A stretch of 64,000 nt of DNA, from NCBI GenBank assembly GCA_017538965.1, contig JAFYHU010000053.1, positions 4,210 to 68,209 of the forward strand, given 5' to 3'. The stretch is from Oscillospiraceae bacterium. GTDB taxonomy: Bacteria > Bacillota > Clostridia > Oscillospirales > Oscillospiraceae. The first letter of the stretch is position 1; each line of letters begins with the position of its first letter. The translations under genes were made by a program, and so were the position numbers. The notes beneath the pieces are model-generated. The model was not told where the DNA came from. It saw nothing but the letters and a program-made list of their open reading frames with translations, and made no database searches. Below, one piece after another: positions 3,668-60,437 of this stretch.

Positions 3668-3699
3668 AAACAGAGCCGGGCACTCTCCCGGCTCTGTTT
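3668..3699. terminator. bidirectional rho-independent terminator between convergent genes
   Basis: Perfect 13-bp stem aaacagagccggg / cccggctctgttt with a 6-nt loop and A/T tracts on both sides. Confidence 0.6.
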
Positions 3700-3701
3700 C
3701 G

Positions 3702-4223
3702 TTACAAGGCGAAGCTTCCGAAGTCTTCGACCATTTTATCCACGAGGGTGATCAGATTCGCCGTCGCCCTCGGCGCGAGATCGAAGACCGAATCCTGCGT
3801 CAGAAGCAGATGAGTTTCCGCGATGAGCGAGTTGTCGCTGACATCCAGAAAGAGCTTTACGCCGGTGGTGTTCGCGTGAAAGTCGTTGACAGCCGCCAGC
3901 AGTTCCGCGAGGTTCTCCGGATCATACTCCAGAAGATTGATCTGCAGAAGCGCCTCGGTGCCGTCTTCGCAGACAAAGGTCAGGAAACTGAACTCGTGAT
4001 CGGAGAGCTTGCCCGCATAAGAGATATTCACGGCTTCAAATTCTTTTCCGCCGATGCTGAGCGTCTCGAGCGCTTCGCAGCTTGCGCCTTCCAGTCTCCG
4101 TAGGGCATCCATATAGTCCTTTGTCGCTTCGAAACTGGCATCGCCGGCAAAGGCCGACACGCCGAGGCTGAACATCAGCACGAGGATCAGGGGAAACGCG
4201 AGAAGGCTTTTTTGAATTTTCAT
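3702..4223 (-). CDS. small secreted protein of unknown function, co-operonic with the upstream TIR gene
   Basis: The likely true start is MKIQKSLLAFPLILVLMFSLGVSAFA-GD (signal peptide). This is an internal Met of the 314-aa track ORF, whose N-terminal extension overlaps the TIR gene. The gap to the TIR gene stop is 28 nt. Confidence 0.6.
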   Translation of the reverse strand: MKIQKSLLAFPLILVLMFSLGVSAFAGDASFEATKDYMDALRRLEGASCEALETLSIGGKEFEAVNISYAGKLSDHEFSFLTFVCEDGTEALLQINLLEYDPENLAELLAAVNDFHANTTGVKLFLDVSDNSLIAETHLLLTQDSVFDLAPRATANLITLVDKMVEDFGSFAL

Positions 4224-4251
4224 GGCAGACCTGTCCTTTCCCAAATCAATT

Positions 4252-7200
4252 TTATGTTCTGCTGAGGATGTTTCCGTCTTTGTCGTATTCCACCGCGGCG
4301 AGCAGCCGGCCTTTGCGGTCATAATACCGCACGACGGTCCGGTTTCCGTATGGATCGTAGTCGGTTTCGCAGGACGCATAGCCGCCGTCGTTCGTAATCG
4401 GTTTCCCGTCCCTGCCGAAGTAGCTGGTCCGGATCTCGTTGCCGCGCTCGTCGTATTCCGATTCCAGACCGGCAAAGCCGCCGATGTGGAGACAGGGTTC
4501 TCCGTCGAGGCCGACGAAGCTGACCTTGATCTGGTTGCCGCGCTCATCGTACACCGCATCCCATCCGGCATAGCCGTCCCGGAACAGAACCGGCTGTCCG
4601 TCCGTGCCGAAGTAACGGCAGCGGATCTTCCGATCCCGCCCGTCATATTCAGATTCGCAGGAAGAAAAGCCGTCCGCGTTCAGAACCGCTTCTCCGTCCA
4701 GCCCAAAATAGCTGACTTTGCGTTCGTTGTCCCGCTCGTCGAAAACGGACTCGAAACAGCAGCCGCCGTAATCGTTCAGAACGGGCTTTCCGTCGGTGCC
4801 GAAGATGGTCGTTTTGATGATATTACGGTGCGCGTCATACTCCGACTCAAACCCGGCGTAGCCGTCTGCAGCCAGAACCGGTTTCCCGTCCGTGCCGAGA
4901 TAGGTGAAACGGATCTGGTTGCCGCGCCCGTCATACACCGCGTCCCATCCGGCATAGCCGTCCCGGCTCAGAATCGGCTGCCCGTCGGTCCCGAAATACC
5001 GGAGCCGGGTCTGATTGCCGCGCCCGTCATATTCGGCCTCCTGCCCGGCATAGCCCTCGGCATTCAGGATCGGCCGTCCGTCCGTATCGAAGAAGCGGGC
5101 TTTGATCTGGTTGCCGCGCCCGTCGTATTCAAAAGCCTCCGCGGCATAGCCCCCGGCGCTCAGAGCAGGCTGCCCGTCCGTGCCGAAGTAAGCGCGCCGG
5201 AGCTCATTGCCGTGGGCATCGAAGGCAGAGTCCCACCCGGCCACGCTGTCCCCGTACAGAACCGCTTCGCCGCTCAGGCCGAAGAAGCTGCGCCGGAGCT
5301 CGCTGCCGCGCTCGTCATAGGTCGATTTCCATCCGGCGATGCCGCTTTTATGCAGAACGGCTTCCCCGCCGGTTCCGAAGCAGCGGCATTCCGTCTCGTT
5401 GCCGCGCTCGTCATAGGCATATTCCCATCCGGCGACGCCGTCCGTGTTCAGGACCGGCTGGCCGTCTTTGCCAAAGAAGCCGAGACGGATCTGATTGCCG
5501 CGCTCGTCATACGCCGCGTCCCATCCGGCATAGCCGTACTGACACAGAGCAGGCTGCCCGTCCGTGCCGAAAAAGGCGACCCGGACCTCGTTGCCGCGCT
5601 CGTCGTACACCGCATCCCATCCGGCGATGTCGTCCCGGCTCAGAATCGCTTCTCCGTCCGCGCCGAAATAAGAGCAGCGGATCACGTTGCCGCGTTCGTC
5701 ATAGGCGTAGGTCCATCCGGCGTAGGCATCCTTCATCAGAACAGGCTGCCCGTCCGTGCCGAAGTAGCCGACTCTGACCGGATGACCCCTGTCGTCGAAA
5801 AGCGTTTCCCATCCGGCAATGCCGTCTTCGCTCAGAACCGGCTCGCCGTCCGTGCCGAAGTAAGAGCAGCGGATTTCGTTCCCGCTTTCGTCAAAGACGG
5901 ACTCGTACCCGGCGACGCAGATATCGTGCAGAACCGGATTTCCGTCGGGATCGAAGAAACTGCGCCGGATTTCCCTGCCGTTTTCATCAACCTGAGACTC
6001 CCATCCGGAAATGCCGTCCCGGTGAAAGACCGGCTCTCCGTCCGTCCCGAGGAAGCCGACACGGACCTGATTCCCCCGTGCGTCATAGCGGTTTTCCTGC
6101 GCGGCAAAGCCGAGCTCGGTCAGGAAGGGGCTGCCCTGCGTGTCATAATAGCTTGTTCGGACTTCGTTGTGGTTTTCATATTCAGAAGCCGTGACAGCGC
6201 CGGAGGAGGCGAGGGTGATCAGCTCTCCCTGCGCGTCCAGCATGCGCTGCCCGACGCAGTCGCCGGCGTCGTCATAGAGAAATTCGATGCCGGCCAGGCC
6301 GCTGCGCTTTCCGACCACCCGATAGTTTTCCGCCCTGGTGGCATCCGTGCTGCCGGACGCGACATAGGTGAGATAGAGCAGGCGGATGATGCGGCCCTGT
6401 CCGTCCCGTTCAAAGCGAATCCCGCTGATGCCGTCCGCGTCGTGGGCGGAATGGTTGTAGGCATCGGATGCATAGTGCACTTCAAGCGGAAATCCCGAAG
6501 CGTCATAGGTTACCAGATAGCGGATCACGCTGCTCTTGCGATCCTTTTCCCCGCTGTCGTCTTCCAGCGGATCGACGGTGATGTGCGAAGGCAGAGGCGC
6601 CGCCATCGAGAAGCCCCCGCTTTCCGTCTCCGGATGCCTGGAAAGATCGACGGTGTTCCGGCTGATATAGTGCAGTTCCGTTGCCAGCTGTCCGTTTTCG
6701 TTGTACTGATTGACGCTGGACAGACCGCCGTCGTCCGCATAAACGTACTCCGCCCTGGAAAAGCGGTCGATCCGTGTCGGGTGCGTATCCGGCATGAGCT
6801 TGCCCGCGCTGTTCTCATAACGCAGTTCGCGGACCCTGCCGCGGCTGGACAGCAGGGTGTAGTGCGCGTTCATGGACGGAAGCTCGTTTTCCTTCAGTTC
6901 TCCGATACCCTTCGGAACCCCGTAGACCTCGGTGTAATCCGCATAATACTTCGTTTTCGGCGTATAGTAATCCCAGGCTTTCCACGCGCCCGCCATCACG
7001 ACCAGGGCGAGAAGCGCGGCGGCAAGGCGGTTCTTTCTCCGGCGCCGCAGGTCGTCGCTCTCCAGTTCCTCCCGCCTGATGCCCAGCATGGCGGCGATGA
7101 GGCGCAGCAGAGCGGTGCGCGGCCCGTCGTCGTAGATGCTGACGCCGGCGATGTCCTTCTCTCTGCTCAGCTGCGCCAGATAAGCAGGAAAGCACTCCTC

Positions 7201-7596
7201 CACCGGGTGATCGCTCTTGTCCACGATGAAGGGAATGACGCGGCCGAGATCACCGCTGCCCTCCAGAAAGTACCGCAGTTCGTCGTCCAGGTACCGGGAG
7301 TTCTCCGCGGCTTTCCGGGAGCAGATGACGATCAGGTATCTGGCCGACTGCACTTCGCTGGAAAGGCCGCTGTCCAGCAGCCCCGGGGTCAGATTGGTTT
7401 TGTCCAGAAAGATCGGGCTGCAGCGTTTCTGAACCTGCGGATTCTTTCTGTGGGTTCTCGCGGGCAGGCGGTAATTATGGAGATGCCGCTTGAGCCAGCG
7501 GGCCCATTTTTCGTCCGCACTCTTGTAGCTGATAAAGGCAAAATAGGTATAGTTGTCTGAAGAAGCAGCTGCAGGGGAAACGGGTTCCGAATTCAT
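4252..7596 (-). CDS. TIR domain - single TM helix - about 20 tandem YD/RHS-like repeats (receptor-like membrane protein)
   Basis: The N-terminus YFAFISYKSADEKWARWLKRHL...IFLDKTNLTPG...YLIVICSRKAAENSRYLDDELRYF fits the TIR_2 pattern. RRRRKNR is followed by LAAALLALVVMAGAWKAW (TM helix). Then come ~32-aa repeats with consensus GYAGWDAVYDERGNQIR..YFGTDGQPVL, encoded at about 4255-6190. A GGAGG RBS lies upstream of the ATG at 7596. Confidence 0.8.
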   Translation of the reverse strand: MNSEPVSPAAASSDNYTYFAFISYKSADEKWARWLKRHLHNYRLPARTHRKNPQVQKRCSPIFLDKTNLTPGLLDSGLSSEVQSARYLIVICSRKAAENSRYLDDELRYFLEGSGDLGRVIPFIVDKSDHPVEECFPAYLAQLSREKDIAGVSIYDDGPRTALLRLIAAMLGIRREELESDDLRRRRKNRLAAALLALVVMAGAWKAWDYYTPKTKYYADYTEVYGVPKGIGELKENELPSMNAHYTLLSSRGRVRELRYENSAGKLMPDTHPTRIDRFSRAEYVYADDGGLSSVNQYNENGQLATELHYISRNTVDLSRHPETESGGFSMAAPLPSHITVDPLEDDSGEKDRKSSVIRYLVTYDASGFPLEVHYASDAYNHSAHDADGISGIRFERDGQGRIIRLLYLTYVASGSTDATRAENYRVVGKRSGLAGIEFLYDDAGDCVGQRMLDAQGELITLASSGAVTASEYENHNEVRTSYYDTQGSPFLTELGFAAQENRYDARGNQVRVGFLGTDGEPVFHRDGISGWESQVDENGREIRRSFFDPDGNPVLHDICVAGYESVFDESGNEIRCSYFGTDGEPVLSEDGIAGWETLFDDRGHPVRVGYFGTDGQPVLMKDAYAGWTYAYDERGNVIRCSYFGADGEAILSRDDIAGWDAVYDERGNEVRVAFFGTDGQPALCQYGYAGWDAAYDERGNQIRLGFFGKDGQPVLNTDGVAGWEYAYDERGNETECRCFGTGGEAVLHKSGIAGWKSTYDERGSELRRSFFGLSGEAVLYGDSVAGWDSAFDAHGNELRRAYFGTDGQPALSAGGYAAEAFEYDGRGNQIKARFFDTDGRPILNAEGYAGQEAEYDGRGNQTRLRYFGTDGQPILSRDGYAGWDAVYDGRGNQIRFTYLGTDGKPVLAADGYAGFESEYDAHRNIIKTTIFGTDGKPVLNDYGGCCFESVFDERDNERKVSYFGLDGEAVLNADGFSSCESEYDGRDRKIRCRYFGTDGQPVLFRDGYAGWDAVYDERGNQIKVSFVGLDGEPCLHIGGFAGLESEYDERGNEIRTSYFGRDGKPITNDGGYASCETDYDPYGNRTVVRYYDRKGRLLAAVEYDKDGNILSRT

Positions 7597-13872: not shown

Positions 13873-15816
13873 ATGAACGAACAGCCGAAAAACAGAGAAT
13901 GGGTAAAGAACGCCGCGATTGTATTTCTCTCGGTGATTCTTGTGCTGACCTTTTTCTCGAATACCATCATGAACCGCAGCCTCCCCGAGGCGGCGACGCA
14001 GGAAGTCGTGGACGGCAGCATCGTGTCCAAGGTACGCGGCACCGGCACCGTCACGGCAACCGGCAACCACCAGGTGAAGATGGAAAAGACCCGCGTCATC
14101 CGCAGCGTGCTGGTGAAAGCCGGCCAGGAAGTCGCGGCCGGCGACGTGCTGTTCACCCTCGGCGAAGGCAGCAGCGATGAAATTGCTGAAGCCGAATTAA
14201 AGGTTCATAGCCTGCAGAGCTCATACAACCGCCAAGCGGCTACCAGCGGAGTATATTCCTATTCAGCCGCGGAAAACAACCTGAGTATTCTTGGTGATAG
14301 GCTGGATGAAGCAACAGAAGCAATGCTCATTGCAAAAGAGGAAGCAGAAAAAGAAGTTCAAGATCAGGAACAACTTGAAGTTATAAAAGAAAAGTTGGAA
14401 AAAGCGATTAAAGCACGTGACGAAGCAAAAGATCATTATGATCAAGTGGTTATTGAACAAGCGGGATATGAAGAACTGCAATCTCTAAAAGAAGCATTGG
14501 CAGATATCTATACAGACCTTGTAACTCAAGGATTGATTGACGGAGATCTTGTGGAATCTACTTATCTTTCAGAAAGAGAAATCATTCTTGAACAGATAAC
14601 AAGAGATGAAAAGGAACTGATGGATCTGGGAAGCCTAGAAGATCCTGCATCAACAACAGATATAGAAGAATTAAGGGCACAGGCAGCACAAGCTCGGTTA
14701 GATGCGGAAGCCCTAAGAGATGAAGGCAGGGATGAAGAAGCTGTCCTTAAAGAACAAGAAGCTGAAGATTTAGAAGCATCAATTGCCGAATATGAGGAAA
14801 AGCAGATAGAATATGAGGAAAAGACAGAAATAGAAGAAGAGCTTAAAGGCAAAATAGAGATATTGAAAGACGCACTGGCAGAGCATGATAGGATACAAAG
14901 AGAGGTATATGACACAGAACAGAAAAATGAAAAAGTAAATGCAGCAAAAAACGAGTATGAATCATCACTGGAAGATGTGGACAGATGGAGTGAGGCACTT
15001 AATTCTATTTTGAGTTATGCTACCGATGGGTACTACAACGAAGTCTATAAAAATAAGCTGGAAGCCTATAGACAGGCAAATATCAACTATCAGGATGCAC
15101 GCGATGCTTTAGATCGAAGAAAAGCGGAAGATGCCCAATCGCAGGCTGCGAAAGGCGTTGACCTCAACCAGATAAAGTACGAAATAGAGGCAGCCAAGAA
15201 GAAATTGGATGAGTTAACGGGCGAAGATGGTGCAATTATTACTGCCAAGGTGGCGGGCACGGTGACTTCGGTCGAGTGTACCGCGGGCGACAAGAAGATG
15301 AAGGACGATGTCCTCTGCACGATTGAAGTCCCCGATATGGGCTATACCATGTCCTTCTCGGTGACCAACGAGCAGGCCAGCCGCCTGCGCATCGGCGATC
15401 AGGCGACTGTATCGAACTTCTACTGGGGCAACGAGGTCACGGCCACCCTCAGCAGCATCAAGACCGACCCCAAGAAGGCTCAGAGCAACAAGCTGCTGAC
15501 CTTCGACCTCGAGGGCAACGTGACGACCGGCTCGGAGCTGACCATCTCGGTCGGACAGAAGAGCGCCAACTATGACCTGATCGTCCCGAGCAGCGCGATC
15601 CGCTCGGACGCCAACGGCAGCTTCGTTCTGAAGGTCGAGGCGAAGAACTCGCCGCTGGGCAACCGCTATATCGCCAAGCGCGTGCCGGTCGAAGTGCTGG
15701 CGAGCGACGACAACAACTCGGCCGTGACCGCCGAGCTGCAATACGGCGACTATGTCATCACGACCAGCAGCGCGCCCATCAAGAGCGGCTCGATGGTGCG
15801 CCTTGCCAGCTCGTAA
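13873..15816 (+). CDS. HlyD/MFP-family periplasmic adaptor with a very long coiled-coil insert
   Basis: N-terminal TM segment, then a lipoyl-like hairpin VRGTGTVTATGNHQVKMEKTRVIRSVLVKAGQEVAAGDVLFTL. A Glu/Lys-rich coiled coil of roughly 350 aa follows. The second lipoyl half is ITAKVAGTVTSVECTAGDKKMKDDVLCTI, followed by a beta-barrel C-terminus. Confidence 0.7.
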   Translation: MNEQPKNREWVKNAAIVFLSVILVLTFFSNTIMNRSLPEAATQEVVDGSIVSKVRGTGTVTATGNHQVKMEKTRVIRSVLVKAGQEVAAGDVLFTLGEGSSDEIAEAELKVHSLQSSYNRQAATSGVYSYSAAENNLSILGDRLDEATEAMLIAKEEAEKEVQDQEQLEVIKEKLEKAIKARDEAKDHYDQVVIEQAGYEELQSLKEALADIYTDLVTQGLIDGDLVESTYLSEREIILEQITRDEKELMDLGSLEDPASTTDIEELRAQAAQARLDAEALRDEGRDEEAVLKEQEAEDLEASIAEYEEKQIEYEEKTEIEEELKGKIEILKDALAEHDRIQREVYDTEQKNEKVNAAKNEYESSLEDVDRWSEALNSILSYATDGYYNEVYKNKLEAYRQANINYQDARDALDRRKAEDAQSQAAKGVDLNQIKYEIEAAKKKLDELTGEDGAIITAKVAGTVTSVECTAGDKKMKDDVLCTIEVPDMGYTMSFSVTNEQASRLRIGDQATVSNFYWGNEVTATLSSIKTDPKKAQSNKLLTFDLEGNVTTGSELTISVGQKSANYDLIVPSSAIRSDANGSFVLKVEAKNSPLGNRYIAKRVPVEVLASDDNNSAVTAELQYGDYVITTSSAPIKSGSMVRLASS

Positions 15817-16908: not shown

Positions 16909-16923
16909 AAAGCAAAAAAACCG

Positions 16924-16960
16924 GCGGGAATCCAGATATTGGATTCCCGCCCGCATTTTT
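16924..16960 (+). terminator. rho-independent terminator
   Basis: Stem gcgggaatcca / tggattcccgc with a 5-nt loop, and a T-tract shortly after. Confidence 0.55.
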
Positions 16961-17076
16961 GACAGTTGTGTTTGTTTTTTGATTGTGTTTTTGACATTTT
17001 CTTCGTTTTTCTCATTGATTATTTGACAGGAATGGCATATACTAAGGGCAAACCGGGAAAATGGAGGCTGCTTTCC

Positions 17077-18426
17077 ATGGAATTGACCCGCAAATGCGAG
17101 GAACAGATCCGCGACTGGCTTCGGCAGGATCATCAAAAAGCGCTGCTTGTGGATGGGGCTCGTCAGGTCGGAAAGACACATACCATCCGCCGCGTCCTGT
17201 CATCCGAAAACCAGGATTATGTTGAATTCAATCTTTTGCAATTGCCTGAACTGGTCCCACTCCTTCAGCAGGCCAGGACAGTTGATGAGCTGGTGCTTGG
17301 TTTTTCGGTTTTTACTTCCCATGCTTTTATAAAAAAACAGACGATTATCTTCATTGACGAAGTTCAGTGTGATAAAGAAATGGTTTCGAGGATTAAATTC
17401 CTGGTTGACGATGGCAGCTATCGGTTTATCTTAAGCGGTTCCTTGCTTGGCATCGAAATCACAAACCTTCTCTCCGCTCCTGTCGGATACCTGCGTATCC
17501 TCAAAATGTATCCTCTGGACTTTGAGGAATTCCTGCAGACTGCGTCTGTCTCTGCGGATCTGATCGAGTATCTTCACAACTGCTTTCTCCGGCGCGAGAC
17601 GGTTATGGCATCTGTCCATGACAAGCTGATGAACCTGTATCGGCAATATCTTGCCATCGGGGGGATGCCGGAAGCGGTTTCATACTATGCAGATCATTAT
17701 AATCTGAACGGCATTCTTCAGATTCACCGGGATATCACGGCGCTGTACAAGCTGGACTTCACCCAGTATGAAGCAGAGAATAAACGCCTTATTCTAAGCA
17801 ACATTTATGACAGCATTCCTTCACAGCTGTTGAAGCAGAACCGCCGCTTTATGCTCAGCGATCTGAAAAAGGGTCTGCATTATGAACGGGTGGAAAGCTC
17901 TTTCCTCTGGCTGAAAGCCGCTGGGGTTACGTTGACTGCTTACAATGCAACGGAACCCCGTCTCCCTCTGAAATTAAATGAAAAGAGCAGTCTTTTCAAG
18001 CTGTATCTTGCAGATGTAGGGATGCTTACTTCTTCCTATGGGATGAGCACAAAACGGCAGCTTCTTACAAAAGACAGCCGCTTCAACGCCGGAGGTATTT
18101 ATGAAAATGCCGTTGCGCAGGAGCTGTCTGCCAAAGGGTTTCGCCTGTACTATTATAATTCCACGCGAATCGGAGAGCTTGATTTTGTCGTGGAATATGG
18201 AGGAAACGTCCTTCCCATCGAGGTCAAAAGCGGAAAGGACTATACGATCCATTCGGCACTGTCTTCTGTGATGCGGAATGAACAGTATCAAATAGAGGAA
18301 GCTTTTGTTTTCGCAGACTGTAATATCAGCTCCTCCGGCAGGATCATTTACTATCCGGTCTATATGACCATGTTCCTGGAAGCAGAAGAAAATGATCCCG
18401 GTCTTCTTCAAAAAATCGTCCTGTGA
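17077..18426 (+). CDS. AAA+ ATPase of the AAA_14/DUF4143 type
   Basis: Start trimmed to ATG 17077 (GGAGG 9 nt upstream). Walker A is DGARQVGKTH and Walker B is IIFIDEVQ. The C-terminal ELDFVVEYGGNVLPIEVKSG is a restriction-endonuclease-like DUF4143 signature. Composition is visibly lower in GC than the flanks. Confidence 0.8.
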   Translation: MELTRKCEEQIRDWLRQDHQKALLVDGARQVGKTHTIRRVLSSENQDYVEFNLLQLPELVPLLQQARTVDELVLGFSVFTSHAFIKKQTIIFIDEVQCDKEMVSRIKFLVDDGSYRFILSGSLLGIEITNLLSAPVGYLRILKMYPLDFEEFLQTASVSADLIEYLHNCFLRRETVMASVHDKLMNLYRQYLAIGGMPEAVSYYADHYNLNGILQIHRDITALYKLDFTQYEAENKRLILSNIYDSIPSQLLKQNRRFMLSDLKKGLHYERVESSFLWLKAAGVTLTAYNATEPRLPLKLNEKSSLFKLYLADVGMLTSSYGMSTKRQLLTKDSRFNAGGIYENAVAQELSAKGFRLYYYNSTRIGELDFVVEYGGNVLPIEVKSGKDYTIHSALSSVMRNEQYQIEEAFVFADCNISSSGRIIYYPVYMTMFLEAEENDPGLLQKIVL

Positions 18427-18446
18427 CATGAAGAGGTTTGTTTCCC

Positions 18447-20351
18447 ATGAAGATAAAAATATTTCTCGCATCATCCATAACGGAGTTTTCCAGGGAGAGA
18501 GAATCCCTGATGGCTTTTACGCAGGGATTGAACAACATCTTTCATGACAGAGACCTGTTTTTGGAGATGATAATCTGCGAAACCCTTTCTTCGCAGCTCC
18601 AGAACCGCAGAAGTCAGGAAGCATATAACGAGATTATCGAAGACAGTGAATACTTCTATGCCATTTTGGGAAATCGGGTCGGAGAATACACCGTTGAAGA
18701 ATTCGACACAGCTCTGGAATCCTATCGGGAAAAGGGAGCCCCGCGGATTTATGTGTATTTTCAGAAATCCGACGAACCGGAGAAACTTGATGACACGGTG
18801 CATCGGTTTGCAGAACGCCTGGAAAAGGATCTTCAGCACTATTATAATGTTTTTACCCATATCGATTCCGTCAAGCTGAATCTGCTGATCGAGCTGTGCA
18901 GGGATCCTCGGCTGGCAGCAAGTCTGGCGCTGGAAGATGGGGAAGCAAAGCTGAACGGAATTGCTTTGCTTTCGATGGCGAATATTCCTCTCTACGGCAA
19001 CAACGAGGTTATAAACAAACTGCGCAAAGAAAAAGAAGAACTGGAGATTGAGTTTTCCGATCTCATCGATCTGGGACAGAGTGAAAAGGTTCAGAGACTT
19101 ATCCGCAGCAATACGCTTCGACGGAACGAAATTGCCGATAAACTCCATGTTATAGAAAAAAGCATGCTTGATCTGTGTCAGGGGGTTGAAGAAAACAGGC
19201 GTCTCGGGAGACGACTGAATTGGCGCGAAAAGAAAGCAATGGAGTTTGTGGATGCCGGCGACTATGAGTCGGCAAAAGCGGTGTTGCGCGATGAACAATG
19301 GCATGATGAGGTTCTTCGGGCGGAAGACATCATAAAAAGCGCGAAAAATGTCATGGAGGAATATATCTGCGGAAAAAAGACCCTGATTCATACGATTATG
19401 GCTTCCGGACTGCGCTCAGAATCAGAGGAAGAGGTTATCGGTATTTACGAAGAAATCTGCCTGCTGGCGGCAGAAAACCAGATCTGTCTTGAGACGCTGT
19501 ATGAATACGCAGATTTTCTGCTTGAGCAAAACCGATTTTCGAGAGGAAGACAGATTGCGGAAAAATTGACTGCGCTTTATACCGCAGAAGACGCGGCGGC
19601 AGATAAGCTCGCGGATGCGTATTGGATGCTCGGAAGGCTTTATCACTGGGAAAACGATAGAAAGAAAGCAGAACATTCTTTCAGACAATCGCTGTCTTTG
19701 TATCGAGAGCTGGCGCAGCAGCATCCAAACACTTACGAAGACGGTCTTGCGAAAGCATGCAATAATCTGGCCAATCTGCTTGCAGATACAGAGCAGAAGG
19801 AAGAAGCGGAAACGCTATACAGAGAAGCTATGGACAACAGAAAAAATGCCGTTCAACACTACGGCGCTTCCCGCGAACCGGCTATGGCAAGAAGCTGCTA
19901 CAATTTGGCGGTCTATTTGGCGGAGCAAGGCGCGTATGAAGAATCGGAACAGCTGCATCTGGAGGCGATGAAGATACGCAGCAGAATTGCCGAAAGCGAC
20001 TCCATGACCGACAAAGCGGAACTGGCAAGGTCATACTACGGCCTGGGAGAATTATATATCAAAATGGAGAAGCTCGAAATCGCAGAAGAATACCATATGA
20101 AAGCCTATGAGATTCGCAGCCTGATTCTTGAAAGCAATCCTTCTGCCATAGAGCCTGATTTTGCGAGGTCCTGCTATTCTATCGGGAATATTTTCCTCCA
20201 GGAAGGAAGATATGATGCGGCAGAGCAATATTTGCAGAAGGCAGCGGACATCCGGAAGCAGCTGGCAGATGAGAATCCAAAAGCATTCAGCACAGAATTG
20301 GAGGCCTCTGTCCGTGCTTTAAAGAAGTGCGAGGAACAGAAACGAGCTTGA
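18447..20351 (+). CDS. DUF4062/TIR-like N-terminal domain - coiled coil - TPR (TPR_10/12-type) protein
   Basis: Start trimmed to ATG 18447 (aagagg RBS). The N-terminus KIFLASSITEFSRERESL...EDSEYFYAILGNRVGEYTVEEFDTALESYREKGAPRIYVYF fits my memory of the DUF4062 consensus (FISSTF.DL..ER......CD.fi.iiG.RYG..TE.Ey..A...gk..l.F). The C-terminal ~280 aa are KLC-like TPRs (LARSYYGLGELYIKMEKLEIAEEYHMKAYEIR). It starts 20 nt after the ATPase gene. Confidence 0.75.
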   Translation: MKIKIFLASSITEFSRERESLMAFTQGLNNIFHDRDLFLEMIICETLSSQLQNRRSQEAYNEIIEDSEYFYAILGNRVGEYTVEEFDTALESYREKGAPRIYVYFQKSDEPEKLDDTVHRFAERLEKDLQHYYNVFTHIDSVKLNLLIELCRDPRLAASLALEDGEAKLNGIALLSMANIPLYGNNEVINKLRKEKEELEIEFSDLIDLGQSEKVQRLIRSNTLRRNEIADKLHVIEKSMLDLCQGVEENRRLGRRLNWREKKAMEFVDAGDYESAKAVLRDEQWHDEVLRAEDIIKSAKNVMEEYICGKKTLIHTIMASGLRSESEEEVIGIYEEICLLAAENQICLETLYEYADFLLEQNRFSRGRQIAEKLTALYTAEDAAADKLADAYWMLGRLYHWENDRKKAEHSFRQSLSLYRELAQQHPNTYEDGLAKACNNLANLLADTEQKEEAETLYREAMDNRKNAVQHYGASREPAMARSCYNLAVYLAEQGAYEESEQLHLEAMKIRSRIAESDSMTDKAELARSYYGLGELYIKMEKLEIAEEYHMKAYEIRSLILESNPSAIEPDFARSCYSIGNIFLQEGRYDAAEQYLQKAADIRKQLADENPKAFSTELEASVRALKKCEEQKRA

Positions 20352-20434: not shown

Positions 20435-21802
20435 ATGAATATCCTGATTCTGAACGGGTCCCCTGCCGGGGACAGCAGCATCACCCTGCAGACCATGCTT
20501 TATATCGAGAAGTTCTTCCCGGAGCACCGGTATGAGCTTCTGAACGTCGGGCAGAAGATCAAGGCCCTCGAGAAGGATTTTTCACCGGCAGGGAGGATGC
20601 TGGAAGAAGCGGAGCTGATCGTCTTCTGCTATCCGGTCTATACCTTTCTCGTCCCCTCCCAGCTTCACCGCTTTCTCGAGCTGATGAAGGAACGCGGGCC
20701 GGACCTGACGGGGAAATTCGCGACGCAGATTTCGACGTCCAAGCATTTTTACGACACCACGGCGCACGAGTTCATCCGTGAAAACTGCGCCGATCTGCAT
20801 CTGGCCTGCCTGAGAGGCCTCTCGGCGGATATGGAAGATCTGCTGAAGAAGAAGGGGCGGAAGGAAGCCCTCGATTTCTTCCGGCATGTGCTCTGGGCGG
20901 CGGAACACGGGCTCTCGGAGGACATCCCCGCCACGGCGCACAGGACCGGGCCGCTGTCGAAAGCGACGGTTCCGGAAAGCGGGCGGGAGCCTTCCCCGCA
21001 GGGGACGATCGCGCTCGTGGCGGATCTGGAAGAGGGAAATGAGGCCCTGGACGCCATGGTCCGGCGCTTTATGAAAGTGTCGCCCTATGCCGTCAGGCTC
21101 ATCAACCTCCGGGACTTTCCCTTTTCCGGGGGCTGTCTGGGCTGCTTCCACTGCGCCGCGGACGGAACCTGCATTTACAAAGACGGCTTCGACTGCTTCC
21201 TGCGCGAGAACATCCAGGAGACGAGCGCCACGGTCTATGCCTTCAGCATCCGGGACCATTCCATGGGATCGCGCTTCAAGATGTTTGACGACAGGCAGTT
21301 CTGCAACGGGCACAGGACGGTCACCATGGGCAAGCCTGTCGGGTATCTGATCGACGGAGATCTCAGCGCAGAGGCGAATCTGCGCCAGCTGATCGAGGCG
21401 AGAGCCCAGGTCGGCGGCAACTACCTGACCCGGATTGCCGGGAACGAAGCCGATGCCGACCGAGAAATCGACGCACTGGCCGCCGAACTGGAATATGCCG
21501 TTTCAAACGGCTATCAGCAGCCGGCCAACTTCTACGGCGTCGGCGGCATGAAGATCTTCCGGGATCTCATCTACACCATGCAGGGCATGATGAAGGAGGA
21601 TCACCGCTTTTACAAGGAGCACGGATTCTACGATTTCCCGCAGAAGCGGAAAGGCACGATCCTCGGCATGTATCTGGTCGGCGCCATGATGAACAGCGAA
21701 AAGCTCAGCAGAAAGCTCGGCGCCAACATGACAAAGGGCATGCTGATGCCCTACCGGAAGGTCATCGAAAAGGCAAAACCGGAAAAAATGAACGCATCAT
21801 AA
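20435..21802 (+). CDS. flavodoxin-like-fold NAD(P)H-dependent oxidoreductase, two-domain
   Basis: MNILILNGSPAGDSSITLQT is typical of the FMN-reductase/flavodoxin-like fold. A second half carries a CLGCFHCAADGTC motif. Confidence 0.6.
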   Translation: MNILILNGSPAGDSSITLQTMLYIEKFFPEHRYELLNVGQKIKALEKDFSPAGRMLEEAELIVFCYPVYTFLVPSQLHRFLELMKERGPDLTGKFATQISTSKHFYDTTAHEFIRENCADLHLACLRGLSADMEDLLKKKGRKEALDFFRHVLWAAEHGLSEDIPATAHRTGPLSKATVPESGREPSPQGTIALVADLEEGNEALDAMVRRFMKVSPYAVRLINLRDFPFSGGCLGCFHCAADGTCIYKDGFDCFLRENIQETSATVYAFSIRDHSMGSRFKMFDDRQFCNGHRTVTMGKPVGYLIDGDLSAEANLRQLIEARAQVGGNYLTRIAGNEADADREIDALAAELEYAVSNGYQQPANFYGVGGMKIFRDLIYTMQGMMKEDHRFYKEHGFYDFPQKRKGTILGMYLVGAMMNSEKLSRKLGANMTKGMLMPYRKVIEKAKPEKMNAS

Positions 21803-28326: not shown

Positions 28327-28731
28327 CTACACGGGAATGATGCATTTTTCATCGAAAAGAGGAATCATTCTGTCATGCGTGATCAGGCGGAAGCTTTCTG
28401 CTTTTGCCTGGGCAAGAAGGAGACGGTCATAAGGATCTTTGTGCACTTCGCCGCTGCCGCCCCATTTGAGAGCGTTTTCGGCTAAAAAATGCCTGGAATG
28501 CAGAGGAAGCTGAATGTACCCGGCGGCTTCGCAGCTTTCAATAAATTCCGCAGTAGTGAATTCCAGATTGTTGTTCCTGCTCTTTCGTTTGTTGTTAACC
28601 TCCAGGGTGGAGACGGCGCTGACGTAAATGTTGTTGTCGGCATCCAGGATGATTTCTCTCGCCTTTTCAGAAAGTCGAGGATCGTCCGTAATCGCCCAGA
28701 CGGCTATGTGTGTATCAAGCAGAATGTTCAT
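28327..28731 (-). CDS. vapC: PIN-domain type II toxin VapC
   Basis: MNILLDTHIAVWAITDDPRLS...YVSAVSTLE...HKDPYDRLLLAQAKAESFRLITHD carries the PIN acidic residues and matches the VapC pattern. Confidence 0.85.
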   Translation of the reverse strand: MNILLDTHIAVWAITDDPRLSEKAREIILDADNNIYVSAVSTLEVNNKRKSRNNNLEFTTAEFIESCEAAGYIQLPLHSRHFLAENALKWGGSGEVHKDPYDRLLLAQAKAESFRLITHDRMIPLFDEKCIIPV

Positions 28732-28970
28732 AACGTACCCTCTGACAGCAGTGCCGCAGCTTCTTCGCCGGCGGCATCGAAATCATCGGGCGCTCTGAAT
28801 TTCCCCCTGGCAATTCCGATTCTTTTCGAAACAACAGGCTGATCAATCAATACGATTTTCACAACCGGTTTTCCATTTCTGGCCACCGTGATGGAATCTT
28901 CCATCCCGGATTCAAGGATACGGATCAGTTTGGAAAAACCGGTTTTCGCTTCCAGGACATTGACTTGCAT
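28728..28970 (-). CDS. Phd/YefM-type antitoxin
   Basis: MQVNVLEAKTGFSKLIRILESGMEDSITVARNGKPVVKIV is a Phd/YefM-like N-terminus. There is a 4-nt overlap with vapC. Confidence 0.8.
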   Translation of the reverse strand: MQVNVLEAKTGFSKLIRILESGMEDSITVARNGKPVVKIVLIDQPVVSKRIGIARGKFRAPDDFDAAGEEAAALLSEGTL

Positions 28971-53741: not shown

Positions 53742-53786
53742 ATTTCGACAAAGTTTTTTGGTAGTATGAGGATGGGAGGTGGGACA

Positions 53787-54983
53787 ATGATTCTTCGACC
53801 GGATTATCTGAAAGCGATCCGACCGTTCATTGACGTGCCATTGGTAAAAATTCTGACCGGCATACGCCGCTGCGGAAAATCCACGATCTTTTTGATGCTG
53901 CATGATGAGTTGCTGGAAAAAGGCATCGCAGGAGATAACATTATTTCCCGGCGCTATACGGATATGGAGCTTGAAGACTTCGATCAGCGTACTATGTATG
54001 AGGACCTGAAAGCCGCAATTGCCCCAAAAGGCCGCTGTTATTTGCTGCTGGACGAGGTGCAGGAGATCAAGGGCTGGGAAAAGGTAGTCAACGGCTTGCT
54101 GGAGAGCGCGGATGTGGACATCTATGTGACCGGCTCCAACTCCAAACTGATGAGCAGCGAGATATCCACTTATCTCACCGGCCGCTATGTGTCGATCTCT
54201 GTCTATACACTTTCCTTCCGGGAGTATCTGGACTTCAGGCAAAACAGTGGCCGCAGCCAGGCAGAACTTCTTGAAAGCTATATCCGTATGGGCGGGTTTC
54301 CGCTGGTAGCGCTGGGTGAATACGATGACCAGACCGCGTATCAGATCGTGGAGGGCATCTATCATACCGTCGTATCCCGCGATATTGTAAAGCGGCACCG
54401 CATCTCCAGGCAGGATCTGTTTGACCGGATCGTTCGTTTTGTGATCGAGAATATGGGCAAGACCTTCTCGGCTAACTCCATCAGCACATTTTTAAAGAGC
54501 GAACACCGAACGGTCTCGGTAGAGACCATCTATAATTACCTGCGCTGGCTGGAACAGGCCTTTGTCATTTATCCTTGCAAGCGCTATGATCTGCAGGGCA
54601 AGGCAATCCTGAAAACACAGGAGAAATACTATCTGGCCGATGTGTCTTTGAAGTATGCGCTCTGCGGCTACAATGGCCGGATGCGTGCGGCTGCGCTGGA
54701 AAACATTATTTATCTGGAAATGCGCCGCCGTGGCTATGAGGTCTATATCGGCAAGCTCGGCAGCAAGGAGATCGATTTCGTGGCTGAAAAGCGCGGTGAG
54801 CGGATCTATGTTCAGGCGTGCGTGACCATCCCGGAGGATTCCACCCGCGAGACAGACAATCTGCTGGAGATCCCGGACAACTATCCGAAATATGTGGTCA
54901 CGCTTGATCGCCTTGCGACAGGAAATGAAAACGGCGTCCGCATAGTGTACCTTGAGGATTTTTTGCTGGCAGACGCGTGGTGA
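53787..54983 (+). CDS. AAA+ ATPase of the AAA_14/DUF4143 type (second copy in the window, different subfamily)
   Basis: Start trimmed to ATG 53787 (gggagg RBS). Walker A is GIRRCGKST and Walker B is LLLDEVQ. The C-terminus is KEIDFVAEKRGERIYVQAC. Confidence 0.8.
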   Translation: MILRPDYLKAIRPFIDVPLVKILTGIRRCGKSTIFLMLHDELLEKGIAGDNIISRRYTDMELEDFDQRTMYEDLKAAIAPKGRCYLLLDEVQEIKGWEKVVNGLLESADVDIYVTGSNSKLMSSEISTYLTGRYVSISVYTLSFREYLDFRQNSGRSQAELLESYIRMGGFPLVALGEYDDQTAYQIVEGIYHTVVSRDIVKRHRISRQDLFDRIVRFVIENMGKTFSANSISTFLKSEHRTVSVETIYNYLRWLEQAFVIYPCKRYDLQGKAILKTQEKYYLADVSLKYALCGYNGRMRAAALENIIYLEMRRRGYEVYIGKLGSKEIDFVAEKRGERIYVQACVTIPEDSTRETDNLLEIPDNYPKYVVTLDRLATGNENGVRIVYLEDFLLADAW

Positions 54984-55014
54984 CTTAGCCGAGCGGCAAA
55001 ATATGGCTGTCTTT

Positions 55015-55164
55015 CCATAACAAACAAATCCGAACCGTATCTTCCGGGCTGAAGACAGGGTCGGATCTGTTTTTTCTTCGGGCAATCTCCTTTTCCATCT
55101 GGTCAGAAGCCGAAAAAGTTAAAGAAACAGGAAAGTTTTTCAAAGTCAACTGGAAAAACTATTG
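55015..55164 (+). repeat. direct repeat copy B (decayed terminator plus promoter-leader module)
   Basis: See copy A. In copy B the terminator stem carries two mismatches (caaatccgaacc / gggtcggatctg). Confidence 0.85.
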
Positions 55165-55165
55165 C

Positions 55166-55195
55166 TTGACTTAGCCGAGCGGCATAGAATATAAT
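55166..55195 (+). promoter_or_regulatory. hipBA promoter
   Basis: TTGACT (55166-55171), an 18-nt spacer, then TATAAT (55190-55195). The spacer is occupied by one copy of the TTAGCCGAGCGGCA motif. Confidence 0.55.
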
Positions 55196-55262
55196 GACAA
55201 TGAAAGAAATTAGCCGAGCGGCATAATAAGGTTGCAGATGAAGATAATTTAGCCGAACGGCA
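55171..55262 (+). promoter_or_regulatory. array of three TTAGCCGARCGGCATA motifs at exactly 39-bp spacing (putative HipB operators); a fourth copy lies at 54985-54998
   Basis: Motif starts are at 55171, 55210 and 55249. The core GCCG-ag-CGGC is a near palindrome. Confidence 0.5.
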
Positions 55263-55279
55263 TAATCGGAGGCGGTTTT

Positions 55280-55489
55280 GTGATAACAGACGCGAAGGAT
55301 TTCGGTGAAGCTCTGCGCCGGAGACGCAAGGATCTGGGATATACACAGGCCTTCCTGTCCGAGTTCTGCGGACTCAGCGTGACCTTTATCTCTGATCTGG
55401 AAAACGGAAAAAGTACTGCGGAATTGGGAAAAGCGATCTATCTGGCCAATCTCCTTGGCCTTGACTGTTCTCTGACTCCGAGGAGCTGA
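55280..55489 (+). CDS. hipB: HipB-like XRE-family HTH antitoxin
   Basis: FGEALRRRRKDLGYTQAFLSEFCGLSVTFISDLENGKSTAELGKAIYLANLLGL. GTG start with GGAGG 7 nt upstream. Lies directly upstream of hipA. Confidence 0.8.
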   Translation: MITDAKDFGEALRRRRKDLGYTQAFLSEFCGLSVTFISDLENGKSTAELGKAIYLANLLGLDCSLTPRS

Positions 55490-55492
55490 CCC

Positions 55493-56770: not shown

Positions 56771-56872
56771 GTACCATCTCGGAAAGTCAGTTTGCCATAA
56801 AAGCAGAATACCTTTGAAAAAAGCTCAATGAGCCTGAGCGAGCACTCGGGGAAACAGCAGAGGAGGAAAGAA

Positions 56873-57613: not shown

Positions 57614-57888
57614 TCCCCGGCTGGAAACGGAAAACGGAGTTTTTTCGCTGTGTTTCAAGCTTCACCCGCGAAATATCATAAGATACGCCCGATTTCTGTT
57701 GCGGGAGAGAAGAGAATGAGAAAGAATCCAAATCACTTTATGATGAACAGAACCGGACACGAATGACATGATTGAATTCAGCTTGGGCAAGTGGTATCGG
57801 CGCGTTTCTTGTTTGGCTTTTGTCATCAAAAAGGCCGGGAAAGATACTAACGTGGCATCATTCCCGGCCCGATGTGGTATCCGCTTTC

Positions 57889-58188: not shown

Positions 58189-58194
58189 GCAGTT

Positions 58195-60428: not shown

Positions 60429-60437
60429 GCGCACGTC

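What the first reader, a model, noticed from the sequence alone, without database searches (positions are those of the whole stretch)
17077..20351. Low-GC two-gene islet: DUF4143 AAA ATPase plus DUF4062/TIR-like-coiled-coil-TPR protein (split STAND-like defence candidate)
Seen in sequence. Between a terminator (16924-16960) and the next GC-rich gene lies a ~3.4-kb patch whose codon usage is clearly more AT-rich than its surroundings. It holds two tightly spaced same-strand genes, 20 nt apart. Gene 1 is an AAA_14/DUF4143 ATPase (Walker A GARQVGKT, Walker B IIFIDEVQ). Gene 2 has an N-terminal ~110 aa segment (KIFLASSITEFSRERESL...YFYAILGNRVGEYTVEEFDTAL...PRIYVYF) that matches my recollection of the DUF4062 consensus, a TIR/deoxyribosyltransferase-like fold. 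A ~200-aa coiled coil and ~280 aa of KLC-type TPRs follow. Gene 2 has no NTPase domain of its own. Established knowledge. Antiviral STAND/Avs proteins have the order effector - NTPase - TPR sensor, and DUF4062 has been described computationally as an N-terminal effector or adaptor in such conflict systems. Inference. Here the effector and sensor lie on one polypeptide and an ATPase is supplied in trans, so this is a split arrangement. I do not recognise it as any named defence system.
Basis: partly seen in the sequence, partly recalled or inferred. Interest (0 to 1): 0.7.

Follow-up and report, generated by a model that had tools for sequence, protein, structure and literature searches.

The report
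Two independent defence genes, side by side
A small, probably imported patch of DNA holds two neighbouring phage-defence-type genes that look independent: a very common ATPase-nuclease candidate (PDC-S01) and a TPR-repeat protein with a DUF4062 NAD-degrading head, not a new two-part system.

Summary
Window 17077-18426 encodes an AAA_14/DUF4143 ATPase. Twenty nucleotides downstream, 18447-20351 encodes a protein with a DUF4062 head, a helical stalk and TPRs. The patch has 46-47% GC; its flanks have 55-59%.

The split-STAND reading does not hold. Gene 1 is a full-length match to PADLOC candidate PDC-S01 (4e-174), an abundant single-gene candidate. A second, solitary copy lies at 53766-54983. Gene 2 belongs to a large family (1,111 representatives at E<=1e-30). 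In 52 loci encoding relatives, none has a PDC-S01-type gene next to it, and only one has one within 8 kb. No ATPase of any family recurs as a neighbour. Relatives of gene 1 have varied neighbours and never a DUF4062/TPR gene.

Three 2026 preprints show that DUF4062 (NIR) is a TIR-like NADase effector. It works in single-protein systems without an NTPase (Vulcan, Swarozyc, Evangelion). Gene 2 keeps the family motifs, including an invariant Glu pair, E84-E85.

Best reading: two self-sufficient defence genes share one small islet. Gene 2 is an unnamed TPR-sensor variant of the DUF4062 NADase systems. Interest is moderate to low.

The parts
16923..16960 (.). Bidirectional terminator-like hairpin that ends the upstream MacB-like gene; left edge of the islet
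   Evidence: 13-bp stem with 8 G-C pairs and T runs on both strands; inverted repeat I2
17015..17043 (+). Promoter-like site (TTGATT-17-TATACT) upstream of gene 1
   Evidence: Consensus scan, 9 of 12 matches. This is a pattern match only.
17077..18426 (+). Gene 1: AAA_14 ATPase plus DUF4143 (PD-(D/E)xK-like) protein, 449 aa; a PDC-S01 member
   Evidence: Pfam AAA_14 2e-21, DUF4143 1e-29, weak UPF0102/YraN 2.6e-5. PADLOC PDLC04792 4e-174, full length. More than 8,000 homologs at E<=1e-20.
17155..17178 (+). Walker A motif, GARQVGKT (aa 27-34 of gene 1)
   Evidence: Read from the translation
17344..17367 (+). Walker B motif, IIFIDEVQ (aa 90-97 of gene 1)
   Evidence: Read from the translation
18172..18237 (+). 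Putative PD-(D/E)xK nuclease motif, GELDFVV ... PIEVKSGK (aa 366-387 of gene 1)
   Evidence: Read from the translation. It lies in the stretch with weak UPF0102/YraN and NERD hits. DUF4143 is listed in the PD-(D/E)xK superfamily (PMC3424549).
18447..20351 (+). Gene 2: DUF4062 (NIR, TIR-like) head, small beta-sheet and helical stalk, then a TPR array; 634 aa
   Evidence: Pfam; family alignments A1, A2 and A5; AlphaFold models
18447..18896 (+). DUF4062 / NIR effector domain (aa 1-150), five strands alternating with five helices
   Evidence: PF13271 scores 25.6-29.3 bits against a cut-off of 24.7. 13 of 16 relatives hit PF13271. The model has pLDDT 88.8. It is 31% identical (E 6e-12) to an NCBI-annotated DUF4062 protein.
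18696..18701 (+). Invariant Glu pair E84-E85 in YTVEEF; E85 is the putative catalytic Glu of the NADase
   Evidence: Invariant in 22 of 22 sequences, including relatives fused to STAND NTPases. It matches the 'acidic-SYT ... E87-Y88' motif described for Eva01 in motif order. No direct alignment to Eva01 was possible.
18897..19481 (+). Small three-strand sheet (aa 160-176) and long helical stalk (aa 187-343); no Pfam family
   Evidence: AlphaFold secondary structure, pLDDT 82-94. Only coiled-coil noise against PDB sequences.
19482..20351 (+). TPR array (KLC/NPHP3-like TPR_10/TPR_12); putative sensor; shortest in the family
   Evidence: TPR_10 2e-22 and TPR_12 4e-20, 4-5 stretches. Relatives carry more repeats beyond this end.

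Best explanation
The islet is a small, probably horizontally acquired defence patch. It holds two self-sufficient single-gene modules that happen to be adjacent and are probably co-transcribed.

**Gene 1** is a PDC-S01 member: an AAA+ ATPase (AAA_14) fused to a DUF4143 PD-(D/E)xK-type nuclease-like domain. By inference it is an NTP-driven, nucleic-acid-targeting protein that acts alone. PDC-S01 is still an unvalidated candidate.

**Gene 2** is an NTPase-less member of the DUF4062 (NIR, TIR-like) NADase defence proteins. The inferred mechanism has four steps:
1. The C-terminal TPR array binds a phage protein.
2. Binding changes the oligomeric state through the beta-sheet and helical stalk.
3. 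This frees the autoinhibited DUF4062 heads, which hydrolyse NAD+ using E85 (with E84).
4. The infected cell arrests or dies, which is abortive infection.

**Shown here:** domain content, conserved motifs, family size, lack of a conserved partner, and defence-gene-rich neighbourhoods. **Inferred from the 2026 preprints:** NADase activity, the trigger and abortive infection.
For: **Independence of the two genes**
- tblastn of gene 1 against 47 genome loci of gene 2 relatives (up to 8 kb on each side) gave no hit at E<=1e-3.
- phmmer and hmmsearch with gene 1, the second window copy and a 62-sequence family HMM found only L031 (12878-14221, two genes away, a different subfamily) and a weak fragment in L013. 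That covered 52 loci.
- All-against-all BLASTP of the three genes on each side found no conserved neighbour family.
- A Pfam scan of 86 immediate neighbours found no recurrent ATPase.
- The three closest relatives of gene 2 (45% identity) have no AAA_14 neighbour.
- Gene 1 relatives have variable neighbours: a second PDC-S01 gene, MazG-like plus SLFN-type helicase, DUF2281, LRR_5. None has a DUF4062-like ORF.
- A second PDC-S01 gene at 53766-54983 stands without such a partner.
- PDC-S01 occurs about 1.6 times per rumen genome (PMC13356809). Chance then predicts about 0.4 copies within the flanks searched (genome size of 2.5-3 Mb is my assumption). One was observed.

**Gene 2 as a DUF4062 NADase-type defence protein**
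- Pfam PF13271 scores above its cut-off, and 13 of 16 relatives hit it.
- F6, A8, S9, S10, R18, E45, E84, E85 and A89 are invariant. They match the F, Q/W/E and acidic-SYT/E-Y motifs in order.
- The head is 30-35% identical to terminal domains of NB-ARC and NACHT proteins, so it is a modular effector.
- The model shows a beta-alpha alternation, then a small sheet, then a stalk. This matches the published description of KpSwz.
- Vulcan (NIR plus HEAT repeats, no NTPase) and Swarozyc defend alone through a catalytic Glu and NAD+ depletion.
- Roughly 11-16 of 86 immediate neighbours of relatives hit PADLOC models. The count is estimated from per-family tallies. About 3 of 86 control neighbours did.
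- The N-terminal 345 aa are more conserved than the full length (53-57% against 45% for the same proteins). TPR number varies, as expected of a sensor.
Against: - The 20-nt spacing, the shared GC (0.47) and the absence of a terminator between the genes suggest co-transcription and perhaps co-acquisition. Functional coupling in this one lineage is therefore not excluded.
- The DUF4062 Pfam score is only just above the cut-off, and its aligned stretch (aa 4-81) stops short of E84/E85.
- Foldseek was not discriminating. NDT, TIR and BcmB appear at E about 1e-2 with the long model. The head alone gives generic flavodoxin-like and Ras hits.
- The functional literature consists of three unreviewed 2026 preprints.
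- PDC-S01 itself lacks experimental validation (PMC12988326).
- The neighbour enrichment counts are rough. The tool reports counts per family, not per protein.
Confidence: 0.7

Rival explanations
1. Split STAND-like two-gene system. The AAA_14/DUF4143 ATPase acts in trans as the NTPase switch for the DUF4062-TPR effector-sensor protein.
For: - The genes are 20 nt apart on the same strand with no terminator between them, and have the same low GC.
- Relatives of the DUF4062 head do occur fused to NB-ARC and NACHT NTPases.
- Arrangements that look split exist elsewhere: separate LRR, COR and DUF4062 genes lie in a row on Acaryochloris plasmid pMB06.
Against: - 0 of 52 loci of relatives show adjacency, and one locus has a PDC-S01-type gene within 8 kb, as chance predicts.
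- No gene 1 relative examined has a DUF4062/TPR neighbour.
- Gene 1 is AAA_14 plus a nuclease-like domain, not a STAND NTPase. Its AAA_16 and ATPase_2 hits are far below their cut-offs.
- It is a full-length PDC-S01 member, and that family is called as a single gene.
- NTPase-less DUF4062-repeat proteins work alone.
Confidence: 0.05
2. Operon-level cooperation without a shared mechanism. The two independent defence genes are co-transcribed in this strain and give additive or synergistic protection, as happens in defence islands. They are not parts of one machine.
For: - Tight spacing, a single promoter-like site upstream of gene 1, and no terminator between the genes.
- PDC-S01 genes sit next to other defence genes: a tandem PDC-S01 copy, and MazG-like plus SLFN-type helicase.
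- Gene 2 relatives sit next to PADLOC-type genes more often than control genes do.
Against: - No transcript data are available.
- Promoter-like sites also occur inside the genes.
- Synergy cannot be judged from sequence.
- This overlaps with the best explanation rather than contradicting it.
Confidence: 0.15
3. Gene 2 is not an antiviral NADase. Its TIR/NDT-like head has another activity (nucleoside or CMP glycosidase, or a signalling nucleotide cyclase), or is a non-catalytic oligomerisation module. On this view the protein serves a housekeeping or regulatory scaffold role.
For: - The Pfam score is marginal.
- Structural neighbours include nucleoside 2'-deoxyribosyltransferase and the CMP N-glycosidase BcmB.
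- Most neighbours of relatives are ordinary genes.
- No relative was found in the phage or viral collections.
Against: - The Glu pair and other motifs are invariant across distant relatives and across the STAND-fused forms.
- Neighbours are enriched for defence genes.
- The distribution is patchy across Lachnospiraceae, Oscillospiraceae, Coriobacteriia and Christensenellales, in variable contexts.
- All DUF4062 proteins tested so far were NADases.
Confidence: 0.1

Closest known systems
PDC-S01 (PADLOC phage-defence candidate, single gene; AAA_14 plus DUF4143)
   Same: Gene 1 matches model PDLC04792 over its full length (4e-174). It has the defining ATPase plus PD-(D/E)xK architecture. Like other members it is abundant, patchy and often tandem.
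   Different: Nothing distinctive was found. The closest distinct relative is 65% identical. Anti-phage activity of PDC-S01 is still unvalidated.
Vulcan (single protein: N-terminal NIR/DUF4062 plus C-terminal HEAT repeats; bioRxiv 10.64898/2026.09.04.749371)
   Same: An N-terminal DUF4062 effector is joined directly to an alpha-helical repeat sensor with no NTPase, in a single gene. A conserved Glu sits at the equivalent position (E98 in Vulcan, E85 here).
   Different: The repeats here are TPRs, not HEAT repeats. About 200 aa of beta-sheet and helical stalk lie between head and repeats. The hosts are gut and rumen Firmicutes and Coriobacteriia. Sequence homology to Vulcan outside the head could not be tested.
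Swarozyc (KpSwz: DUF4062, then intertwined small sheet, then helical stalk, then AUX domain that binds phage portal; bioRxiv 10.64898/2026.05.01.722283)
   Same: The predicted order of TIR-like head, small antiparallel sheet and long helical stalk matches the cryo-EM description. It is a single gene with no NTPase.
   Different: The C-terminal sensor is a TPR array rather than the Swz AUX domain. The resemblance comes from comparing a text description with a predicted model. No sequence or coordinate comparison was possible.
Evangelion (Eva01 and relatives: DUF4062 core plus short AUX region; bioRxiv 10.64898/2026.06.25.731849)
   Same: The DUF4062 core motifs are shared: an N-terminal aromatic residue (F11 there, F6 here), Q/W/E (E45 here) and acidic-SYT E-Y (YTVEEF here). 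It is a single-gene system.
   Different: Eva01 has a short AUX region and is plasmid-borne in staphylococci. Gene 2 has a region of about 480 aa after the head (stalk plus TPRs) and is chromosomal. No plasmid relative beyond two cyanobacterial head-only hits was found.
Avs / STAND NLR-like proteins with a NIR (DUF4062) effector (for example PsAvs2)
   Same: The effector-then-repeat-sensor logic is shared. The head is 30-35% identical to heads of NB-ARC and NACHT proteins.
   Different: There is no STAND NTPase in gene 2 and none conserved nearby. A helical stalk occupies the place of the NTPase.

Membership tests
Pfam DUF4062 (PF13271) / NIR TIR-like NADase domain | Score at or above the Pfam gathering cut-off | tested here: met
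   25.6 bits for the full protein, 26.7 for aa 1-345 and 29.3 for aa 1-128, against a cut-off of 24.7. 13 of 16 relatives also hit at E<=0.01. The margin is small.
Pfam DUF4062 (PF13271) / NIR TIR-like NADase domain | Conserved motifs: N-terminal aromatic residue, Q/W/E, and acidic-SYT with the catalytic Glu followed by an aromatic residue (E-Y) | tested here: met
   F6, (C/W)44-E45 and Y81-T82-x-E84-E85-F86 are invariant or nearly so in 22 sequences. They were mapped to the motifs described for Eva01 by order and spacing only. No direct alignment was possible.
Pfam DUF4062 (PF13271) / NIR TIR-like NADase domain | TIR-like fold: five-stranded parallel sheet with alternating helices | tested here: inconclusive
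   The AlphaFold model (pLDDT 88.8) has five strands alternating with five helices. With the 345-aa model, Foldseek against the PDB lists NDT 8pqq, TIR 4c6s and BcmB 4jen at E 7e-3 to 4e-2. The head alone gives unspecific flavodoxin-like and Ras hits.
Pfam DUF4062 (PF13271) / NIR TIR-like NADase domain | NAD+ hydrolysis that depends on the conserved Glu | not testable with these tools
   This needs an enzyme assay or NAD+ measurement with E85Q or E84Q mutants.
STAND / Avs (including a hypothetical split form) | A STAND NTPase (NACHT, NB-ARC or AAA_16 class) between effector and sensor | tested here: not met
   Gene 2 has no NTPase domain. aa 150-345 are a sheet plus helices with no Pfam hit.
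STAND / Avs (including a hypothetical split form) | For a split form: a conserved partnership with a neighbouring NTPase gene | tested here: not met
   0 of 52 loci have one adjacent, and 1 of 52 has one within 8 kb. No recurrent ATPase appears among 86 immediate neighbours. No conserved neighbour family was found.
STAND / Avs (including a hypothetical split form) | The partner ATPase belongs to the STAND class | tested here: not met
   Gene 1 is AAA_14 (76.6 bits). Its AAA_16 (15.6 bits, cut-off 32.6) and ATPase_2 (13.6 bits, cut-off 33.2) hits are far below threshold.
PDC-S01 (PADLOC) | Full-length match to a PDC-S01 profile | tested here: met
   PDLC04792 at 4e-174, aa 3-440 aligned to profile positions 2-439 of 452.
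PDC-S01 (PADLOC) | ATPase domain fused to a PD-(D/E)xK superfamily domain | tested here: met
   AAA_14 plus DUF4143. Walker A and B motifs and D...ExK-like motifs are present. The architecture is described in PMC12988326 and PMC3424549.
PDC-S01 (PADLOC) | Demonstrated anti-phage activity | not testable with these tools
Vulcan | N-terminal NIR fused directly to C-terminal HEAT repeats in one protein | tested here: not met
   The NIR head is present, but the repeats are TPR_10/TPR_12 and a stalk of about 200 aa intervenes. It works like Vulcan but is not filed as Vulcan.
Swarozyc | DUF4062 head, intertwined sheet, helical stalk and the Swz AUX (portal-binding) domain | tested here: inconclusive
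   The head, sheet and stalk order is predicted and matches the text description. The C-terminus is a TPR array, not AUX. No KpSwz sequence or coordinates were available, and the PDB sequence search found no relative.

The most novel reading that the evidence does not exclude
In this lineage the PDC-S01 ATPase-nuclease and the DUF4062-stalk-TPR protein have become a functional pair. For example, the ATPase might gate or amplify the NADase, or the NADase might license the nuclease. That would be a newly evolved two-component system made from two otherwise autonomous modules. The 20-nt operon-like spacing, the identical GC and the in-frame 16-nt repeat (K-C-E-E-Q) at codons 6-10 of gene 1 and the last codons of gene 2 would then be traces of that assembly.
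Probability: 0.05. Interest if true: 0.7.

Novelty: new variant of a known kind. Interest (0 to 1): 0.33.

Why it matters
- **It removes a false lead.** The adjacency of an ATPase and an effector-sensor protein is not a new split-NLR system.
- **It points to a large uncharacterised family.** At least 1,111 representatives (50%-identity clusters) match the head-plus-stalk profile at E<=1e-30. They come mostly from gut and rumen Clostridia and Coriobacteriia, and the public records that carry a name call them 'tetratricopeptide repeat protein'.
- **What the family probably is.** It most likely represents TPR-sensor, NTPase-less members of the DUF4062/NIR NADase defence proteins described in 2026.
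- **If confirmed.** It would extend that mechanism to anaerobic gut commensals. It would also offer a natural comparison of how a helical stalk can replace a STAND NTPase as the switch between sensor and effector.
- **Annotation.** The public start codon hides the effector domain.

Tried and rejected
- **Empty-site comparison.** I scanned metagenomes with the downstream FMN-reductase-like protein and got 53 loci, at most 79% identical. None kept synteny with the HlyD, MacB or MatE flanks and none had gene 1 or gene 2. The test therefore says nothing about co-acquisition.
- **Fold search.** Foldseek with the long model and with the head alone gave weak or unspecific hits. I did not rely on it.
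- **PDB sequence searches.** The gene 2 profile and gene 1 found no solved relatives.
- **Phage and viral collections.** Gene 2 had no match. Gene 1 had three IMG/VR loci at 48-49% identity, none with a DUF4062 neighbour.
- **First genome scan.** A 6-sequence alignment worked.
- **Source contig.** The look-up for P0001 failed.
- **Second sample.** L048 is 100% identical over 3,112 nt, so it is the same strain and not independent evidence.
- **Flanking repeats as att sites.** The 16-nt repeat at 17092 and 20325 lies inside both coding sequences, and the gene 1 copy is native to its family (MELRRRCE, MDLVRKCE). I rejected an attL/attR reading. About 0.19 such pairs are expected by chance in the region, and 2 were seen.
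- **Antisense ORFs.** I treated 17974-18474 (-) and 18471-19391 (-) as spurious shadows of the two genes and did not test them further.

Full report
**1. The observation**

The ORF list shows two same-strand genes at the stated place. Gene 1 is best started at ATG 17077, which gives 449 aa. A GGAGG lies 9 nt upstream, and homologs are 447-449 aa with the same N-terminus. Gene 2 starts at ATG 18447 and gives 634 aa, with GAAGAGG 10 nt upstream. Residues 1-21 carry invariant family positions F6, A8, S9, S10 and R18.

The genes are 20 nt apart and no terminator-like site lies between them. GC is 0.469 and 0.470 for the two genes, 0.552 upstream, 0.594 downstream and 0.565 for the window. A bidirectional terminator-like hairpin at 16923-16951 closes the upstream MacB-like gene.

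The flanks are ordinary genes: ABC permeases, HlyD-like and MacB-like upstream, and FMN reductase-like and MatE downstream.

**2. Domain tests**

Gene 1 has AAA_14 (2e-21), DUF4143 (1e-29) and a weak UPF0102/YraN hit in the C-terminal part. Walker A is GARQVGKT, Walker B is IIFIDEVQ, and a D...ExK-like motif is present. Against PADLOC it is a full-length PDC-S01 member (PDLC04792, 4e-174).

Gene 2 hits DUF4062 just above the Pfam cut-off (25.6-29.3 bits against 24.7) and has strong TPR_10/TPR_12 hits over about aa 350-630. It has no NTPase. PADLOC gives only a generic TPR hit.

**3. Is the pair a unit?**

Gene 2 has a real family. About 47 full-length relatives at 24-46% identity turned up in the word-indexed search. 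With a profile of the non-TPR half (aa 1-345), 4,483 representatives score E<=1e-3 and 1,111 score E<=1e-30 in the 50%-clustered library. The 150 best listed nearly all match the profile over its full length, so the stalk belongs to the family as well as the head.

A genome scan returned 47 loci. They come from Lachnospiraceae, Oscillospiraceae, Acutalibacteraceae, Christensenellales, Coriobacteriaceae, Eggerthellaceae and other gut and rumen MAGs. Five more loci came from the three closest relatives. The tests on these loci gave the following results.

- tblastn with gene 1 gave nothing at E<=1e-3.
- phmmer and hmmsearch used gene 1, the second window copy and a family HMM. They found one PDC-S01-type ORF, in L031, two genes downstream and of the other subfamily. 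They also found one weak fragment in L013.
- All-against-all BLASTP of the three genes on each side found no conserved neighbour family other than paralogs of gene 2 itself.
- Pfam on the 86 immediate neighbours showed no recurrent ATPase of any family.

From the other side, gene 1 has more than 8,000 homologs at E<=1e-20. Its relatives sit next to varied genes: DUF2281 and Bro-N with a helicase, a tandem second AAA_14/DUF4143 gene that is present or absent between samples, or a tandem copy plus MazG-like and a SLFN-type helicase. None of the gene 1 loci scanned with the profiles has a DUF4062-like ORF, and none of the neighbours listed carries a DUF4062 or TPR domain.

The window itself holds a second PDC-S01 gene at 53766-54983 without such a partner.

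PDC-S01 is reported as the most frequent single defence locus in rumen genomes: 10,358 copies in 6,530 genomes. It is also the fourth most common defence system across prokaryotes. With about 1.6 copies per genome and an assumed 2.5-3 Mb genome, about 0.4 copies are expected in the roughly 750 kb of flanks searched. One was seen. The pairing in this window is what chance, helped by defence-island clustering, would give.

**4. What gene 2 is**

Three 2026 preprints establish DUF4062 as a TIR-like NADase effector.

- Swarozyc (KpSwz) is activated by phage portal and depletes NAD+ through E97.
- NIR is the effector of an Avs2 protein, of the single-protein NIR-HEAT system Vulcan (E98) and of the two-gene Vesta system.
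- Evangelion is a single-gene family of DUF4062 plus an AUX region, with conserved F11, Q/W/E and acidic-SYT E87-Y88 motifs.

In gene 2 and 21 relatives, F6, A8, S9, S10, R18, E45, E84, E85 and A89 are invariant. The set includes heads fused to NB-ARC and NACHT proteins at 30-35% identity. The order F ... (C/W)E ... YTxEE(F/Y) fits the published motifs, so E85 (with E84) is the likely catalytic residue.

The AlphaFold models are confident (pLDDT 86 and 88.8). They show five strands alternating with five helices, a low-confidence loop at aa 47-56 where the regulatory BB loop would lie, and a three-strand sheet at aa 160-176. Long helices then run to aa 343. This is the same order as the published KpSwz description of head, intertwined small sheet and helical stalk.

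Foldseek was weak and not discriminating. I count the fold test as inconclusive and rest membership on sequence.

An NCBI-annotated DUF4062 protein on an Acaryochloris plasmid matches the head at 31% identity (E 6e-12).

Immediate neighbours of relatives hit PADLOC models in roughly 11-16 of 86 cases. The families include SoFic, PDC-S04, PDC-S24, SAVED-TIR, ThsB, DdmD and others. About 3 of 86 neighbours of a housekeeping control gene did. The count is rough but agrees with the defence-island enrichment reported for DUF4062.

**5. Mechanism proposed**

Shown here: the architecture, the conserved catalytic-type residues, a solitary gene in variable and defence-enriched contexts, and a head more conserved than the repeat region (53-57% against 45% identity).

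Inferred: the TPR array senses a phage protein. The stalk couples binding to a change in oligomeric state that releases the DUF4062 heads. NAD+ is hydrolysed and infection aborts.

Gene 1 is inferred to act alone as an NTP-dependent nuclease-type module. This is the less certain half, because PDC-S01 has not been validated.

**6. Comparison and novelty**

Gene 1 is an ordinary member of a known candidate family. Gene 2 works like Vulcan and Swarozyc but fails the Vulcan definition (TPRs rather than HEAT repeats, plus a stalk) and lacks the Swz AUX domain. It is not a STAND protein. I file it as a new variant of a known kind: an unnamed DUF4062-stalk-TPR family.

The split-STAND idea gets about 5%. 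The spacing, the shared GC and an in-frame 16-nt repeat at the two ends of the islet keep it from zero. Overall interest is moderate to low, and the main value is the pointer to a large, mis-annotated family in gut anaerobes.

**7. Limits**

- I made no direct alignment to the experimentally studied proteins.
- The functional literature consists of preprints only.
- Neighbour counts are approximate.
- There is no expression or biochemical data.
- The empty-site test was uninformative.

Noticed in passing
window 53766-63640: A defence island at the right end of the window. It holds a second PDC-S01 gene (53766-54983, PDLC04787 1e-152), a protein with weak local PDC-M03A hits that looks HipA-like by eye (55493-56770), AbiEi (58195-58848, minus strand), type I RM specificity and methylase genes (60235-62636) and a PDC-S05 member that looks RhuM-like by eye (62633-63640).
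   Followed up: partly
window 4252-7596 (-): A 1,114-aa protein with an N-terminal TIR_2 domain (3.5e-9; the sequence begins ...YFAFISYKSADEK). It has no PADLOC hit and the rest of the protein is unannotated. It could be another NAD-linked defence or signalling protein about 10 kb from the islet.
   Followed up: partly
window 17092-17107 and 20325-20340: A 16-nt direct repeat, 15 of 16 identical, in the same codon phase in both genes (K-C-E-E-Q). One copy is at codons 6-10 of gene 1 and the other ends 11 nt before the gene 2 stop, so the repeat brackets the islet. The gene 1 copy is native to its family. Gene 2 ends here while its relatives continue with more TPRs. About 0.19 such pairs are expected by chance in the region. 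It remains unexplained and is probably chance or a microhomology scar.
   Followed up: partly
window 18349-18364 and 20627-20642: A second 16-mer pair with one mismatch (TAT CCG GTC TAT, encoding YPVY). One copy is near the end of gene 1 and the other lies in the downstream FMN-reductase-like gene. Together with the first pair, 2 were observed against about 0.19 expected.
   Followed up: no
L035:4640-5095, L036:11173-11628, L042:10748-11215, L045:10847-11314: In four loci of relatives, a small (151-155 aa) stand-alone DUF4062-like protein is encoded immediately downstream of the large DUF4062-TPR gene (hmmsearch 6e-25 to 3e-31). L014, L019 and L038 also have paralogous neighbours. The only recurrent neighbour of the family is therefore another copy of its own head domain.
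   Followed up: partly
P0044, P0046, P0047; P0200, P0242, P0271: Some family members carry two tandem DUF4062 heads before the stalk and TPRs. Both heads keep the Glu pair.
   Followed up: no
window 18447-18509; P0001: The public annotation of the identical protein (613 aa, 'tetratricopeptide repeat protein') starts at Met22. It omits the first strand with the invariant FLASS motif, which hides the DUF4062 domain.
   Followed up: yes
L111 (Acaryochloris plasmid pMB06, NZ_CP071723.1): 3692-6483: Three consecutive same-strand genes are annotated as an LRR protein, a COR-domain protein and a 205-aa DUF4062 protein. This may be a genuinely split NLR/ROCO-like arrangement and deserves its own look.
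   Followed up: no
L115-L122 (Treponema sp. contigs): Between samples, at the same chromosomal site, a second AAA_14/DUF4143 gene directly downstream of the first is either present or absent. This suggests PDC-S01 genes insert next to each other.
   Followed up: no
window 14250-15249: GC falls to 0.40 inside the HlyD-like gene, in its Glu/Lys-rich coiled-coil segment. Low GC in this window can therefore come from protein composition and is not proof of import.
   Followed up: no
window 28327-28970 (-): A small gene pair that looks like a PIN/VapC toxin (MNILLDTHIAVW...) with an upstream antitoxin. The reading is by eye only. PADLOC gave no hit.
   Followed up: no
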